64,000 bases of DNA. Origin: an uncultured Chlamydiales bacterium (GTDB taxonomy: Bacteria; Chlamydiota; Chlamydiia; Chlamydiales; JAAKFR01). Below the pieces are notes generated by a model. That model did not search any database. It was not told where the DNA came from and saw only the letters and a list, made by a program, of their open reading frames with translations. Position numbers and translations under genes: made by a program. The stretch covers positions 52,698 to 116,697 of the forward strand of contig CAVVHU010000001.1 of the NCBI GenBank assembly GCA_963748195.1, in the 5' to 3' direction. This document shows positions 6,056-15,463 of the stretch, one piece after another. How positions within the stretch are numbered: the first letter of the stretch is position 1; the number at the start of each line of letters is the position of its first letter.

Positions 6056-6620
6056 TTGCGATGAGGTAGTCGTTTGACATCCCCATTGAAAGAAAAGGTA
6101 TATTTCCTAGCCGATCGCGTAAGCGTCTCAGCTCAGCAAAACAGGAACGGATCGCATTCCTGTTATCAGTTAAAGGAGCCATCGTCATCAAGCCCTTTAC
6201 CTCGATTCCTTTTAATTCCAGCACTTGAGGAAATAACTCTTCCCATTTAGTGGGAGAAAGCCCGCTCTTGGTCGCTTCCCCTGAAGTATTTGCTTCCAAA
6301 AGAATCGGTGTCGCATTTCTGCTTGCCTCTGAAATCCGTTTAGCAAGCTCATAAGAGTCGACCGAATGGATCAAGGCAAACCTTCCAATTACTTTATTTA
6401 CCTTATTTTTCTGAAGCTTTCCAATAAAATGCCAGCGAATATCGCGCGGCAGCTCTTCCATTTTCGCAAGAGCCTCTTGTACGCGATTCTCCCCAAAGTC
6501 TCTCTGACCGGCAGCATACGCTTCTAATATCTCGTCGCAAGAACGCCCCTTTGAAACAGCGATAAGAGTCGCCTCCCCTATTTGCGTACGGATTTTTTGC
6601 AGGTTTTCAGCAATACTCAA
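6003..6620 (-). CDS. yggS: YggS-family pyridoxal-phosphate homeostasis protein (alanine-racemase-fold)
   Basis: 205-aa ORF with ...AVSKGRS...FGENRVQE...WHFIGKLQKNK... blocks typical of YggS/PLPBP. Initiation appears to use TTG. Confidence 0.75.
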   Translation of the reverse strand: MSIAENLQKIRTQIGEATLIAVSKGRSCDEILEAYAAGQRDFGENRVQEALAKMEELPRDIRWHFIGKLQKNKVNKVIGRFALIHSVDSYELAKRISEASRNATPILLEANTSGEATKSGLSPTKWEELFPQVLELKGIEVKGLMTMAPLTDNRNAIRSCFAELRRLRDRLGNIPFLSMGMSNDYLIAIEEGATHVRIGTALFDG

Positions 6621-6815
6621 GACATTCCCCTTGGCTTACAGATCAAAACACATGCAGTTTTTTAGTGGCCACTTTTACTTTTTTAATGAGACAAACTCTT
6701 TGGCTTTAAAGTTGCGCGCGAAGCGCAGTTTCCCGAAGTTCCCAGAACCCTATCAGAACCTCTGTTTTATATTTGCCTTCAGGAAATGCATCTTCGCGCG
6801 TAATTTTATATGATG

Positions 6816-8645
6816 TTAGGCATAAACAAATGCCCCTCCTACGACACCTATTGCAGGCACGAGCCAGGAGATCGTATTACTTTCAGCAGAAGAGGATACG
6901 ACAACGCCCCCTGTATTAGAAGCTGACTGTGATATTGTTGTACTTGAAGAGCTTATAGTTGTTCCAGCAAAAGTTGTAGGGCTCGCTGTACTAGAAGATA
7001 ACCGTGATGTTGTTGTAGTCGAAGAACTTATAGTTGTTCCAGACAAGGTCGTAGTGCTCACTGAACTAGAAGCTAACTGTGATGTTGTTGTACTTGAAGA
7101 ACTCATAGTTGTTCCAGACAAGGTCGTAGTGCTCACTGTTGTGCCTACAGATCCACTGCTTGTGGACGTTCCTTTGGCTATGAGCCCTGTTGTTAGAGGA
7201 AAGGCAGCAGTGCTACTTGAAGGTACAGCATTCGGATTGAATATTTGCCCAAAGACTCCAGAATTGTTTCCATCATGACCGCTGGCGTCCCGCCAAGCGA
7301 TCACAAAATCGCCATTGCTTAAAGCGGATGCCGAAGGTTGATACTGCATCCCGGGCGTGTATGTATTGACTTGAAATTCGCTGCCGACTTTACCTCCCGT
7401 CGCATTGAATATTTGACTAAAGACTCCATAACTGTTTCCATCTTCGCCACTTCCATCATACCAAGCAATAACAAAATTGCCATTGCTTAAAGTGGACACT
7501 GAAGGGCCTCCCTGCATTCCTGTCGTGTATGTATTGACTTGAAATTCACTGCCGACTTTACCTCCCGTCGCATTGAATATTTGTGCGAAGACTCCATAAC
7601 TGTTTCCATCTTCGCCACTTTCATCCTCCCAACCGATCACAAAATGGCCATTTCTTAAAGAGGAGGCTGAAGGGTACATCTGACCTCCAAGAGTGTGTGT
7701 ATTGACAAGAAATTGATTGCCGATTTTACCTCCCGTCGCATTGAATACTTGCGCAAAGATTCCATAACTGTTTCCGTCTAGACCGCCGTCGTCTATCCAA
7801 GCGATCACAAAATCGCCATTGCTTAAAGAGGATACAGAAGGAGATACTTGGCTCCCTATCGTGTATGTATTGACTTGAAATTCACTACCTGCTTTCGCTC
7901 CCGTTGCACTGAATCTTTGACCAAAGACTCCATAGCCGAATCCATCTTCACCATAGGTGTCTGTCCAAGCGACTACAAAATCTCCATTGATCAAAGAGGA
8001 GACGGAAGGGCCTCCCTGTCCTCCAATTGTAAATGTATTGACTTGAAATTCACCCCCGACTTTAGCTCCCGTTGCATTGAATATTTGCGCAAAGACTCCA
8101 GCGCCATTTCCATCCAGGCCGTTATCGTCCTCCCAAGCAATCACAAAACCTCCGTTGCTTAAACTGGACACCGACGGGTTTGCCTGAATCCCTGTCGTAT
8201 ATGTATTGACTAGAAATTCACCACTGACTTTAGCTCCCGTTGCATTGAATATTTGTCCAAAGACTCCATAACTGCTTCCATCTTCGCCGCTATCGTCCAC
8301 CCAAGCAACCACAAAACCGCCATTGCTTAAAGAGGAGGCTGAAGGATTAAATTGATTTCCAATCGTGTATGTATTGACCTGGAATTCTCCCCCAACCTTC
8401 TGTTGTGCAAGTGCTCGTGGAAAACACGCGCTTAAGCCCGCAAATAATGGAAACGGATGTTTTGTGGCTAGGGAACCTGCTATCCCACTCATGAGGGCAG
8501 GGATACAAGAGTTATGCATGACATTATGCCAAACGCGACCAATTTTCTCATCTTTAGGAGAACTTATTTCAAATTTTTGTGAACAGAGAAGTGGAATGGG
8601 AGTTGAAAAAGCGACAGCTCCTTCATAAAATTGTGCGGCAGACAT
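6816..8645 (-). CDS. paralog A of repeat-ectodomain membrane protein family: ~85-aa conserved N-terminus, ~8 x 57-aa repeats, Ser/Thr-rich stalk, C-terminal TM, no cytoplasmic domain
   Basis: Tandem repeats GEFQVNTYTxGxQxxPSVSSLSNGxFVxAWxDDxGxDGxxxGVFGQIFNATGxKVG. Ser/Thr-rich low-complexity stalk, then WLVPAIGVVGGAFVYA and the stop. Conserved N-terminus shared with the two downstream paralogs. Confidence 0.75.
   Translation of the reverse strand: MSAAQFYEGAVAFSTPIPLLCSQKFEISSPKDEKIGRVWHNVMHNSCIPALMSGIAGSLATKHPFPLFAGLSACFPRALAQQKVGGEFQVNTYTIGNQFNPSASSLSNGGFVVAWVDDSGEDGSSYGVFGQIFNATGAKVSGEFLVNTYTTGIQANPSVSSLSNGGFVIAWEDDNGLDGNGAGVFAQIFNATGAKVGGEFQVNTFTIGGQGGPSVSSLINGDFVVAWTDTYGEDGFGYGVFGQRFSATGAKAGSEFQVNTYTIGSQVSPSVSSLSNGDFVIAWIDDGGLDGNSYGIFAQVFNATGGKIGNQFLVNTHTLGGQMYPSASSLRNGHFVIGWEDESGEDGNSYGVFAQIFNATGGKVGSEFQVNTYTTGMQGGPSVSTLSNGNFVIAWYDGSGEDGNSYGVFSQIFNATGGKVGSEFQVNTYTPGMQYQPSASALSNGDFVIAWRDASGHDGNNSGVFGQIFNPNAVPSSSTAAFPLTTGLIAKGTSTSSGSVGTTVSTTTLSGTTMSSSSTTTSQLASSSVSTTTLSGTTISSSTTTTSRLSSSTASPTTFAGTTISSSSTTISQSASNTGGVVVSSSAESNTISWLVPAIGVVGGAFVYA
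7100..8400. repeat. in-frame ~171-bp tandem repeats encoding the 57-aa blades of paralog A (approximate bounds)
   Basis: Visible periodicity in DNA and protein. Confidence 0.5.
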
Positions 8646-14576: not shown

Positions 14577-15019
14577 AAGATCCTTATTTTTTTTATATTG
14601 CGAACAGATTATAGAAAAATCACTTTTAATCCAAGGATATTGCAGCCTTGCTCAGGGCTAACGCATTATTTTTTTTTCCTGTAGAGTATGTCCTCTCTGT
14701 AAAGAGCTCTTCGTCTTCTTCTGACCAGACTGGTTTTATCATCTCCATAGCCCTGCAGCCTTGCTGACTTTAACCCACAGTGCCATAAACCGCTCCATTG
14801 GTTCGTATACATCGCCATAGTTTTCTTCATGGTGGAGGCGTTTAATCTGCTCTGAGAGTTCAACGTGAATACCTTCATGCAGGAAAAGAGTTTGTCTATG
14901 AGCAGGTTTTTGAGACGCGTATGGCATCAAATTTGGCTTGAAAATAGGTCTGATCCCATGCTAGCCCCCATTTCTCACCAGATCTCTGACGGCAGCATGT
15001 CTCAAGTTTTCAGCAATAC

Positions 15020-15463
15020 TCAAGACATTCCCTTGGGCTTGCTTAGAATTTCGGATAAAATGATCATCGCGTGTGAGGGCTTACGATTCTTCGTGATTTC
15101 AGTTATGCGGTTCTTTCTTTGGACTTTCCTTTCCGTCTCTAAAATGAACTCTTCACTGACGATGCGTTCATCAAATTTAGGGGCGATATGCATTTCGAGA
15201 TGTCGAGCAACGATTTCCGATTCAAAAGCGCGCTCTTGTACTTCACTTTCAAATGAAAAGTCCTTTTTCACAAGCCGTGCTGCCTTTGGAAACGTAAATG
15301 GAAGCTCTAACTCTTCTACTTCCGGCGGTGCCTCTTCCTCTTTCTGCTCTTTCTCAATTGGCTCCTCTGCCCGCTTTTTATCGATGAGCAGCTTGCGCAA
15401 CAACGGAAAAAAGAAAAGCAAAAACAGAATTAAAAAACCAATCAGCTCACCTACCCATTCCAT
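15020..15463 (-). CDS. small membrane-anchored acidic protein downstream of floA (position analogous to yqfB)
   Basis: 147-aa ORF with an N-terminal TM and E/K-rich remainder. Last gene of the nfeD-nfeD-floA operon. Confidence 0.4.
   Translation of the reverse strand: MEWVGELIGFLILFLLFFFPLLRKLLIDKKRAEEPIEKEQKEEEAPPEVEELELPFTFPKAARLVKKDFSFESEVQERAFESEIVARHLEMHIAPKFDERIVSEEFILETERKVQRKNRITEITKNRKPSHAMIILSEILSKPKGMS

What the first reader, a model, noticed from the sequence alone, without database searches (positions are those of the whole stretch)
6603..15040. The paralog array is bracketed by a ~35-bp direct repeat derived from the 5' end of yggS
gttttcagcaatactcaagacattccc(c)ttgg(g)ctt occurs at 6603-6637, which is the real yggS start region. 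It occurs again at 15006-15040, where it encodes only a ~20-codon yggS-start remnant (MSIAENLRHAAV...*). The 8.4 kb between the copies is exactly the three-paralog array plus its small ORFs. This looks like the footprint of an insertion or duplication event, with either a target-site or att duplication or a junction of segmental duplication. It marks the array as an acquired or expanding island.
Basis: seen in the sequence. Interest (0 to 1): 0.6.

Follow-up and report, generated by a model that had tools for sequence, protein, structure and literature searches.

The report
Target duplication flanking inserted paralog array
A 35-base repeat on either side of an 8.4-kb block of three related receptor genes is the scar of that block's insertion into the overlap between two conserved genes of an environmental chlamydia; the closest relative still has the uninterrupted site, so this is a clean but fairly ordinary example of how a gene family seeds a new locus.

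Summary
The same 27 nt (33 of 35 nt) occur at 6603-6637 and 15006-15040 and nowhere else in the window, with none expected by chance. The repeat is not only the yggS 5' end. It is the overlapping junction (TTGA) between the stop of a conserved 147-aa gene downstream of floA and the TTG start of yggS.

The closest relative (Logan contig L089) has one copy of this sequence, joining the window's two outer flanks. More distant Chlamydiales also have NfeD-FloA-148aa-YggS contiguous. The 8.4 kb is therefore a lineage-specific insertion, and the repeat is a duplication of its target.

The insert has no integrase, transposase, tRNA or terminal inverted repeats, and its composition matches the host. 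It holds three paralogs with a 7-bladed beta-propeller ectodomain; one carries a Ser/Thr kinase. At least ten other members lie elsewhere in the same genome. Both ends of the insert lie inside decayed kinase-gene relics.

I conclude that a fragment of a paralog array was inserted by illegitimate, non-site-specific recombination. A 9-nt microhomology at one junction is suggestive only.

A second, unrelated repeat of about 30 nt flanks a toxin-antitoxin insertion 6 kb away. This is a known kind of event and of moderate interest.

The parts
6603..6637 (-). Direct repeat copy 1 (yggS side). In gene orientation it reads AAGCCAAGGGGAATGTCTTGAGTATTGCTGAAAAC. It supplies the Shine-Dalgarno-like AAGGGGA, the TTG start (6620-6618) and the first 6 codons of the intact yggS.
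   Evidence: The junction was confirmed by an independent Logan contig, L091, at 100% over 480 nt.
15006..15040 (-). Direct repeat copy 2 (floA-operon side). It reads AAGCCCAAGGGAATGTCTTGAGTATTGCTGAAAAC. Its first 17 nt are the last codons and stop (..KPKGMS*) of the 147-aa gene. Its last 18 nt are a dead copy of the yggS start.
   Evidence: The junction was confirmed by Logan contig L081.
14961..15023 (-). 20-codon remnant ORF (TTG) SIAENLRHAAVRDLVRNGG*. Only the first 6 codons are yggS-derived; the rest runs into the insert.
6003..6620 (-). Intact yggS (205 aa, PLP lysine in VSKGR), now 8.4 kb from its former operon partners.
   Evidence: Pfam Ala_racemase_N 1.7e-25. NCBIfam TIGR00044 YggS 174.7 bits against a cutoff of 106. 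Alignment with relatives.
15020..15463 (-). Conserved 147-aa hypothetical gene, the last gene of the NfeD1b-NfeD-FloA block. In all relatives its stop overlaps the yggS start (TTGA).
6638..6815 (-). Insert end next to copy 1. It is a decayed, frameshifted N-lobe of a Ser/Thr kinase (AFPEGKYKTEVLIG / GSGNFGKLRFARNFKAKEFVSLKK*K, about 6672-6795), showing that paralog P1 is a truncated receptor-kinase. Detectable homology stops 34 nt before the repeat.
   Evidence: tblastn with P3 gave E 4e-4 and with P0135 E 1e-4. A family HMM scored 23.7 bits against a maximum of 4.6 in 2000 shuffles.
6816..8645 (-). Paralog P1 (609 aa): N-terminal signal/anchor, seven 56-aa beta-propeller blades, Ser/Thr-rich stalk and TM helix. 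The ORF ends after the TM helix.
8646..9099 (-). Spacer IG1. It carries a relic of a kinase-gene 3' end (LDVNSQRRLT.. KPFSNMCEQEDILSHLKHV .. YGPVYGTVA*), which includes the 112-aa 'small ORF' at 8737-9075.
   Evidence: No Pfam hit.
9100..11181 (-). Paralog P2 (693 aa): propeller, stalk, TM helix and a short cytoplasmic tail with 12-aa EAKYGDVADID repeats. The tail is 92% identical to that of P0014, which lies on another contig of the same genome.
   Evidence: AlphaFold model of residues 81-470: pLDDT 87.8, pTM 0.90, 27 predicted strands, consistent with seven 4-stranded blades. Foldseek hits to propellers.
11182..11666 (-). Spacer IG2. It has a tail relic RLHHEENYGDVYERVNGPVYGTVA* (11577-11650) starting 17 nt after the P3 stop. 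It is 93-95% identical to IG3 apart from an indel of about 200 nt.
11667..14576 (-). Paralog P3 (969 aa): propeller ectodomain, TM helix and a complete eukaryotic-like Ser/Thr kinase domain.
   Evidence: Pfam Pkinase 2.4e-35..
14577..15005 (-). Insert end next to copy 2 (IG3). It holds a kinase C-lobe relic (AWDQTYFQAKFDAI, 14920-14958) and a tail relic (IKRLHHEENYGDVYE, 14808-14846), then the P3 promoter region.
   Evidence: The 163-nt IG3-specific part scored 7.0 bits against the family kinase HMM, with a maximum of 3.1 in 2000 shuffles.
12577..12585 (-). GCAAGCCAA within the ILQAK codons of the P3 kinase, used as a proxy for the unknown donor. It is a 9-nt identity with the target sequence at the upstream edge of the repeat and is a candidate junction microhomology.
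   Evidence: p is about 0.015 by shuffling, chosen post hoc.

Best explanation
The two 35-nt copies are a duplication of the insertion target. In the ancestor, the 147-aa gene that closes the NfeD1b-NfeD-FloA block ended on ..AAG CCA AAG GGA ATG TCT TGA, and yggS started inside that stop (TTGA overlap).

An 8.4-kb piece of DNA, or a shorter precursor later remodelled, was inserted here. It was copied from an array of beta-propeller receptor / receptor-kinase paralogs that is expanded in this same genome. The 35 nt spanning the gene junction ended up on both sides. As a result the upstream gene kept its last codons and stop, and yggS kept its ribosome-binding site and TTG start.

The insertion was not made by an element-encoded site-specific recombinase or transposase. 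The insert has no such gene and no termini of its own. It starts in the middle of a decayed kinase C-lobe and stops in the middle of a decayed kinase N-lobe.

The most likely process is illegitimate recombination. One option is replicative template switching: the fork leaves the target after ..GAAAAC, copies the paralog array, and returns 35 nt upstream, possibly at the GCAAGCCAA microhomology. The other is capture of a fragment at a staggered break followed by fill-in.

Shown: the repeat; the empty site in relatives; the absence of mobility genes among the ORFs tested; the gene relics at both ends; the dispersed paralogs.
Inferred: the intragenomic donor; the template-switch or staggered-break mechanism; that selection for intact flanking genes explains why this particular insertion survived.

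My probability that the repeat is an insertion-target duplication is about 0.9. My probability that the event was recombinase-independent and illegitimate is about 0.55-0.6.
For: The repeat is unique and not due to chance.

Empty site: L089 reads ..ATTCTAAGC-AAGCCAAAGGGAATGTCTTGAGTATTGCTGAAAAC-CTGCAAAAAATC.., which is the window's 15041+ flank, one repeat copy, then the window's 6602- flank. Each window copy differs from L089 by a single nucleotide.

Synteny NfeD1b-NfeD-FloA-148aa-YggS-hydrolase without the array holds in L082-L088, and FloA-YggS adjacency holds in L001. The TTGA overlap is conserved.

Both junctions are reproduced in independent Logan contigs.

There is no tRNA. No integrase or transposase domain was found in any island ORF, or in the 20 ORFs of at least 140 aa sampled (of 37) from the rest of the window. 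There are no terminal inverted repeats. Island GC is 0.40-0.47, as in the flanks.

At least 10 paralogs or fragments lie on other contigs of the same assembly.

Kinase relics at both ends are significant against shuffles.

A 9-nt microhomology lies at the position where the relic should end.

A second insertion in the same syntenic block is flanked by a repeat of about 30 nt with an unrelated sequence. This argues for a sequence-independent process.
Against: The donor locus could not be read, because the window's own genome is withheld from the contig look-ups. Intragenomic origin and junction microhomology therefore rest on P3 as a proxy.

The microhomology has p of about 0.015, was found post hoc, and the profile alignment of the relic stops 34 nt before the repeat.

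No microhomology could be tested at the other junction.

A 35-nt target duplication is not a documented standard product of any bacterial pathway that I can cite from the papers read here. The template-switch (MMBIR-type) model is taken from my own knowledge of E. coli and eukaryotic work.

A 13-nt exact inverted repeat sits 52 and 108 nt inside the two ends and is unexplained. It could be a recombinase site.

Two repeats of about 30 nt in 15 kb could also indicate a trans-acting enzyme with a fixed stagger.
Confidence: 0.6

Rival explanations
1. The repeats are attL/attR of a site-specific integrative island that has lost its integrase or is mobilised in trans (a CIME-like element). The 35 nt would be the identity segment shared by attP and attB.
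For: Direct repeats of 15-60 nt that rebuild the ends of the interrupted genes are the classic signature of integrase-made islands (own knowledge). The island is absent from relatives. The two mismatches cluster at one end of the repeat, as expected on one side of a crossover. A 13-nt inverted repeat lies near both ends.
Against: There is no integrase, excisionase or transposase in the island or among the other window ORFs tested, and no tRNA or tmRNA target. Sequence with kinase homology begins 34 and 47 nt from the repeats and is truncated paralog coding sequence, not element arms. Composition is native. The second repeat-flanked insertion uses an unrelated sequence. The repeat has no dyad symmetry, by inspection.
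Confidence: 0.15
2. The 35 nt are what remains of a longer duplication. A tandem or segmental duplication copied a larger stretch of the 147-aa/yggS region, and later deletions and paralog insertion trimmed the extra copy down to 35 nt.
For: The family is highly rearranged, with many truncated copies and relics. MAFFT can align about 28 nt beyond copy 2 to yggS at about 64% identity if a 13-nt gap is allowed.
Against: Identity drops from 33/35 to random on both sides in the ungapped register. The 64% stretch is not distinguishable from chance. This scenario needs at least three events with two deletion endpoints that happen to frame the gene junction, against one event for a direct insertion.
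Confidence: 0.12
3. The array is older than the split from L089 and was lost precisely in the relative by recombination between the repeats. The relative's 'empty site' would then be secondary.
For: 27 nt of exact identity is about the minimum length for RecA-dependent recombination (own knowledge), so precise loss is possible. Each repeat copy has one private substitution relative to L089, so the event is not very recent.
Against: Every relative examined, from 81% down to 49% aa identity of the 147-aa protein (and L001, found by 55% YggS identity), has the uninterrupted junction. This changes only the date, not the nature of the repeat.
Confidence: 0.06
4. The structure is a chance repeat or an assembly chimera that joins a paralog array to the yggS locus.
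For: The source is a metagenome-assembled genome, and the array is highly repetitive.
Against: No match appeared in 100 shuffles. Two contigs from an independent assembly of run ERR11523667 cross each junction and are identical to the window: L091 aligned at 100% over 480 nt, L081 read across the junction. The empty site of the relative matches both outer flanks exactly where the repeat ends.
Confidence: 0.02

Closest known systems
Integrase-mediated genomic islands and prophages flanked by att direct repeats (for example tRNA-associated islands; own knowledge)
   Same: A lineage-specific block is bracketed by a direct repeat identical to the single-copy site in relatives. The repeat rebuilds the ends of the interrupted genes, so both stay functional.
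   Different: There is no integrase or excisionase and no tRNA/tmRNA target. The block has native base composition. Its ends lie inside truncated paralog coding sequence rather than element arms. Its cargo is a host gene family with many other copies in the genome.
Target-site duplications of transposable elements (IS, Tn, casposons)
   Same: Host target sequence is duplicated on both sides of the inserted DNA.
   Different: 35 nt is far longer than the 2-15 nt of known bacterial and archaeal elements (own knowledge). There is no transposase or Cas1, and no terminal inverted repeats.
Microhomology-mediated template switching / break-induced replication (MMBIR, FoSTeS) and other RecA-independent illegitimate recombination (own knowledge; not documented in Chlamydiae in the papers read)
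   Same: A copy of distant DNA is inserted with breakpoints inside genes. Flanking sequence is duplicated for a short, variable length. There is a possible 9-nt microhomology at one junction. No dedicated element is involved.
   Different: The donor was not observed. The microhomology is only suggestive (p about 0.015). There is no experimental precedent in this phylum.
Birth-and-death expansion of large gene families in environmental Chlamydiae (Domman et al. 2014, PMC4209131)
   Same: The families are lineage-specific and host-interaction-type, and occur both as tandem arrays and as clusters dispersed around the genome, with frequent truncation and loss.
   Different: That work concerns F-box, BTB and related families in Parachlamydiaceae, and the passages I read do not describe a junction footprint. 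Here the family is a beta-propeller receptor / Ser-Thr kinase, and the molecular scar of the step that seeds a new locus is preserved.

Membership tests
Integrase-type genomic island (attL/attR) | Flanking direct repeats identical to the single-copy site of island-free relatives | tested here: met
Integrase-type genomic island (attL/attR) | Tyrosine or serine recombinase gene at or near one end | tested here: not met
   Pfam on all island ORFs, including antisense and small ones, gave only Pkinase. None was found in the 20 other window ORFs tested. A trans-acting enzyme elsewhere in the genome could not be checked.
Integrase-type genomic island (attL/attR) | Integration into a tRNA/tmRNA gene or a defined gene 3' end, with element-specific arms next to the repeats | tested here: not met
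   No tRNA in 1-30000. Sequence near the repeats (from 34 and 47 nt inside them) consists of kinase-gene relics.
Integrase-type genomic island (attL/attR) | Atypical base composition | tested here: not met
   GC is 0.40-0.47 inside the island and 0.43-0.51 in the flanks.
Transposon / IS target-site duplication | Terminal inverted repeats and a transposase; duplication of 2-15 nt | tested here: not met
   Terminal identity is 13/40. The only inverted match is 13 nt and sub-terminal. There is no transposase domain. The duplication is 35 nt.
Xer/dif-dependent modules (IMEX, pdif) | 28-nt site with two inverted 11-nt arms around a 6-nt spacer | tested here: not met
   By inspection of the sequences, neither repeat has dyad symmetry. 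No profile search was done.
Template-switch / microhomology-mediated duplicative insertion | Microhomology at both junctions between target and donor | tested here: inconclusive
   9 nt (GCAAGCCAA) at one junction using P3 as proxy, p about 0.015. The other junction is untestable without the donor.
Template-switch / microhomology-mediated duplicative insertion | A donor copy elsewhere in the genome that is collinear with the insert beyond its ends | not testable with these tools
   Paralogs exist on contigs of 185,242, 622,757, 127,461, 58,925 and 37,648 bp. Their DNA is not retrievable.
YggS / PLPBP family (label of the flanking gene) | Match to TIGR00044 above the curated cutoff; conserved PLP lysine | tested here: met
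   174.7 bits against a cutoff of 106.25. The lysine in VSKGR aligns in all relatives.
Eukaryotic-like Ser/Thr protein kinase (P3 and the end relics) | Pkinase domain above the gathering score; glycine loop and beta-3 lysine | tested here: met
   P3 scores 122.6 bits against a cutoff of 31.7. The relic GSGNFGKL..SLKK scores 23.7 bits against the family HMM.

The most novel reading that the evidence does not exclude
This chlamydial lineage may have a recurrent, element-independent insertion process that duplicates about 25-35 nt of target at the 3' ends of genes. It could be an unrecognised trans-acting enzyme making nicks about 30 nt apart. By this route both host-interaction paralog arrays and toxin-antitoxin cassettes would be planted into conserved operons without inactivating the neighbours. 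Two such scars with unrelated sequences lie 6 kb apart in one syntenic block (6603/15006 and 20707/21904). A 13-nt inverted repeat near the ends of the first island is unexplained.
Probability: 0.12. Interest if true: 0.65.

Novelty: new member of a known kind. Interest (0 to 1): 0.35.

Why it matters
Environmental Chlamydiae are known to expand host-interaction gene families into tandem arrays and dispersed clusters. How a cluster reaches a new chromosomal site in an obligate intracellular bacterium that is poor in mobile elements has been inferred only from gene trees.

Here the step is preserved at nucleotide resolution. There is an empty site in a sister lineage, a 35-nt duplication of an overlapping stop/start junction, and insert ends that cut through paralog genes. 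This gives a concrete, testable model of illegitimate duplicative insertion, filtered by the need to keep both flanking genes intact.

It also dates the array as younger than the split from the closest relative. The practical value is modest: it flags the three beta-propeller receptor/kinase genes as recent lineage-specific acquisitions at this locus, and it offers a PCR-testable excision or polymorphism marker.

Tried and rejected

2. An exact 27-mer scan of metagenome contigs gave 0 hits.

3. DNA-level alignment of the island ends to the P3 kinase is too decayed to be informative. Protein and profile searches were needed.

4. I tried to extend the kinase-relic alignment into the repeat. The profile alignment stops at KKVK, 34 nt short. 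The idea that the first 8 nt of copy 1 are donor-derived therefore stays a hypothesis.

5. Reciprocal-product idea: P0133 is an N-truncated kinase starting at AIQESRNEG, so it might be the other half of P1's broken kinase. Rejected, because P0133 is 90% identical to P3, while the P1 relic is closest to the P0135/P0140/P0142 subfamily.

6. Unit-circle (circular permutation) model. The two ends are not contiguous in kinase coordinates (about model position 88-105 against about 265-280), so the model is not supported as such.

7. A shared recombination motif between the two repeat-flanked insertions: only chance-level 7-8-mers were found.

8. Direct repeats around the third lineage-specific insertion (265-aa gene): none.

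9. Promoter and terminator scans of the island gave nothing above shuffle expectation.

10. PDB sequence search for the ectodomain gave no hit. The fold was assigned from an AlphaFold model instead.

11. A literature search for long target duplications by illegitimate recombination in bacteria found nothing directly applicable.

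
Full report
**Observation**

The sequence GTTTTCAGCAATACTCAAGACATTCCC is present exactly at 6603-6629 and 15006-15032. With up to three mismatches allowed, these are the only two matches on either strand of the window. One hundred dinucleotide-preserving shuffles gave none.

In the same register the similarity runs to 6637 / 15040, with 33 of 35 positions identical. It falls to background immediately outside on both sides. Outside the internally repetitive paralog genes and one tandem-repeat tract, only one other direct repeat of 22 nt or more exists in the 64 kb.

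**What the repeated sequence is**

All genes here are on the minus strand. Read in gene orientation, the repeat is AAGCC(C/A)A(A/G)GGGAATGTCTTGAGTATTGCTGAAAAC.

At 15006-15040 the first 17 nt are the last codons and stop of a 147-aa ORF at 15020-15463 (..K P K G M S *). That ORF follows floA (15467-16492), nfeD (16489-16959) and nfeD1b (16956-18512). The stop TGA overlaps a TTG that opens SIAEN.

At 6603-6637 the same TTG (6620-6618) opens a full-length YggS. It scores 174.7 bits on TIGR00044 against a cutoff of 106, and the PLP lysine is conserved.

The repeat is therefore the overlapping stop/start junction of two genes, not merely the yggS 5' end. The 20-codon ORF at 14961-15023 shares only its first six codons with yggS.

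**Comparison with relatives**

The window's own genome is not in the species-representative collection; the best YggS match there is a Chlamydiia MAG at 55%. A protein search with the 147-aa product found orthologs at 81%, 53%, 49% and lower identity.

In contigs L082 (GCA_022599615) and L083-L088, the order is TamB-Omp85-HemL-NfeD1b-NfeD-FloA-148/150aa-YggS-hydrolase. The 148/150-aa gene and yggS overlap by 4 nt. In L001, FloA is followed by YggS after 190 nt. None of these has the array.

The closest relative is a 1.1-kb Logan contig, L089. Its DNA identity to the window is 91% for floA, 78% for the 147-aa gene and 87.5% for yggS. It reads ..ATTCTAAGCAAGCCAAAGGGAATGTCTTGAGTATTGCTGAAAACCTGCAAAAAATC...

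That sequence is the window's flank above 15040, one copy of the repeat, and the window's flank below 6603. Each window copy differs from the L089 version at one position. Copy 2 has a synonymous CCA>CCC change in the 147-aa gene. Copy 1 has AAAGGG>AAGGGG in what is now the yggS ribosome-binding region.

This is the empty-site / filled-site relationship that defines an insertion with target duplication.

**Not an assembly artefact**

Two contigs from an independent assembly of run ERR11523667 cross the junctions. L081 runs from floA through copy 2 into the insert. L091 runs from P1 through copy 1 into yggS and is 100% identical to the window over 480 nt.

**What was inserted**

The interval 6638-15005 holds three paralogs: P1 (609 aa), P2 (693 aa) and P3 (969 aa). 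Each has a conserved N-terminal region, six or seven 56-aa repeats (168-nt period), a Ser/Thr-rich stalk and a TM helix.

An AlphaFold model of the P2 repeat region has pLDDT 87.8 and pTM 0.90. DSSP lists 27 strands, consistent with seven four-stranded blades. Foldseek matches beta-propellers of the sialidase/GH93/TolB type.

P3 continues into a complete Ser/Thr kinase domain (Pkinase 2.4e-35). P2 has a short tail of EAKYGD repeats. P1 stops after the TM helix.

The same assembly encodes at least ten further members or fragments on other contigs: P0014, P0016, P0026, P0038, P0132, P0133, P0135, P0139, P0140 and P0142. No other copy lies in this window. Base composition is the same inside and outside the insert.

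**The ends of the insert**

The 178 nt between the P1 stop and copy 1 encode a frameshifted kinase N-lobe with stop codons: AFPEGKYKTEVLIG / GSGNFGKLRFARNFKAKEFVSLKK*K. This is supported by:
- tblastn E 4e-4 with P3 and E 1e-4 with P0135;
- 23.7 bits against an HMM built from the family's kinases, with a maximum of 4.6 in 2000 shuffles.

P1 is therefore a truncated receptor-kinase, and the insert ends inside its kinase domain.

At the other end, the first 163 nt after copy 2 carry a weaker relic of the kinase C-lobe (AWDQTYFQAKFDAI). The post-kinase tail motif (EENYGDVYE) follows just beyond them, in collinear order. This segment scores 7.0 bits, with a maximum of 3.1 in 2000 shuffles.

The spacers IG1 and IG2 carry the same kind of 3'-tail relic (..YGPVYGTVA*). 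The 112-aa 'small ORF' at 8737-9075 is part of one. The insert therefore runs from mid-kinase to mid-kinase. It is a fragment of a paralog array, not an element with its own termini.

IG2 and IG3, together with the first 100 or so codons of P2 and P3, are 93-95% identical. The P2 tail is 92% identical to P0014 on another contig. The array has therefore kept recombining after it arrived.

**Mobility functions**

No tRNA or tmRNA lies in 1-30000. Pfam found no recombinase or transposase in any island ORF, antisense and small ORFs included, nor in twenty other ORFs across the window. The two ends are not inverted repeats: 13 of 40 terminal positions match.

One oddity remains. A 13-nt exact inverted repeat, AGACAAACTCTTT, lies 52 and 108 nt inside the ends. 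It is unique in the window and longer than any match in 300 shuffles. I could not explain it.

**Mechanism**

A single insertion that duplicates 35 nt of target explains the data with one event. Because the two flanking genes overlap, any insertion between them would destroy one of them unless the junction is duplicated. Selection would therefore favour exactly this outcome (inference).

For the molecular route I favour illegitimate recombination without a dedicated enzyme. This means either template switching during replication or capture at a staggered break.

A hint comes from the kinase sequence just beyond where the N-lobe relic ends. In P3 it reads GGA ATC TTG CAA GCC AAG (ILQAK). This shares GCAAGCCAA with the target ..CTAAGCAAGCCAAAGGG.. 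at the upstream edge of the repeat. Copy 1 (AAGCCAAG|GGGAATG) equals kinase AAGCCAAG plus target GGGAATG. That would make the true target duplication the 27 exact nucleotides.

Shuffling gives p of about 0.015 for such a match. The profile alignment of the relic does not reach it. I therefore treat it as suggestive only. The donor could not be inspected.

**Rivals**

- An att site of a decayed or trans-mobilised island is possible. It is disfavoured by the missing recombinase, the gene-relic ends, the native composition and the unrelated sequence of the second repeat-flanked insertion.
- A longer duplication later trimmed down to 35 nt needs several coincident events.
- Precise loss in relatives would change only the date of the event.
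- Chance and mis-assembly are excluded.

**A second scar nearby**

ATTCTTCTAAGAGGTCAGGGATCAA occurs at 20707-20731 and 21904-21928; the repeat is about 30 nt if two mismatches are allowed. It flanks 1.2 kb of low-GC DNA between hemL and omp85, which are adjacent in L082/L083.

This DNA carries an HTH/antidote-like gene. Next to it are two short ORFs that I read, by eye only, as a frameshifted RelE/Gp49-like toxin. The copy at 21904 is the 3' end of an 86-aa ORF.

The two repeats and the four insert ends share no motif beyond chance. A third lineage-specific insertion, the 265-aa gene at 18580-19377, has no repeat. Two scars of similar length raise the possibility of a recurrent process, which I rate as unlikely but not excluded.

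**Comparison with the literature**

Tandem arrays and dispersed clusters of expanded, host-interaction gene families evolving by birth and death are documented for environmental Chlamydiae (Domman et al. 2014, PMC4209131). The family here is different: a beta-propeller receptor/kinase. What this locus adds is the preserved junction footprint of a dispersal step.

**Verdict**

The event is a new member of a known kind: an insertion flanked by a target-derived direct repeat. I score interest at 0.35.

Noticed in passing
window 20707-20731 and 21904-21928 (insert 20736-21903): A second direct repeat, 25 nt exact (about 30 nt with 2 mismatches), flanks a 1.2-kb low-GC insertion between hemL and omp85. 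The insert carries an HTH/addiction-antidote-like 180-aa gene (20786-21328) and what looks by eye like a frameshifted RelE/Gp49-like toxin relic (21325-21734). The copy at 21904 is the 3' end (..LLIPDLLEE*) of an 86-aa ORF. hemL and omp85 are adjacent in relatives L082/L083.
   Followed up: partly
window 6689-6701 (+) and 14885-14897 (-): A 13-nt exact inverted repeat, AGACAAACTCTTT, lies 52 and 108 nt inside the two ends of the 8.4-kb insert. It is unique in the window and longer than any inverted match in 300 shuffles of the ends. There is no extension and no explanation.
   Followed up: partly
window 18580-19377 (+): A 265-aa gene sits between nfeD1b and hemL and is absent at this position in L082/L083. 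It has no Pfam hit. By eye, the motif ..DSHNCGVYALDY.. resembles the catalytic Cys region of CE-clan (Ulp/ChlaDub-like) proteases. No flanking direct repeat was found.
   Followed up: partly
window 22236-22559 and 22556-23968 (+): The Omp85/BamA-like gene, 575 aa in relatives, appears as two overlapping ORFs of 107 and 470 aa. This is either a frameshift or a sequencing error.
   Followed up: no
window 45374-45640, inside ORF 44392-46806 (-): 84-nt (28-aa) tandem repeats lie inside an 804-aa protein that combines an N-terminal Ser/Thr kinase domain with a C-terminal FGE-sulfatase domain (PknD-like architecture).
   Followed up: no
window 9116-9295 (P2 tail): 36-nt (12-aa) tandem repeats, EAKYGDVADID, occur in the cytoplasmic tail of P2. 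The tail is 92% identical to that of paralog P0014 on another contig, although the ectodomains are only about 71% identical. This suggests gene conversion between loci.
   Followed up: partly
proteins P0133, P0139, P0140/P0173, P0142, P0038 (same assembly, other contigs): Many members of the family are truncated. There are kinases lacking the N-lobe, a receptor with a frameshifted kinase, and propeller fragments. The family is in rapid birth-and-death turnover.
   Followed up: partly
window 37487-38326 (-), 26600-27070 (+), 51334-52710 (+): The window also contains an F-box protein, a CesT-family type III secretion chaperone, and dnaA next to yidC. These are typical of environmental Chlamydiae and show that the insert lies in a core, housekeeping-rich region.
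   Followed up: no
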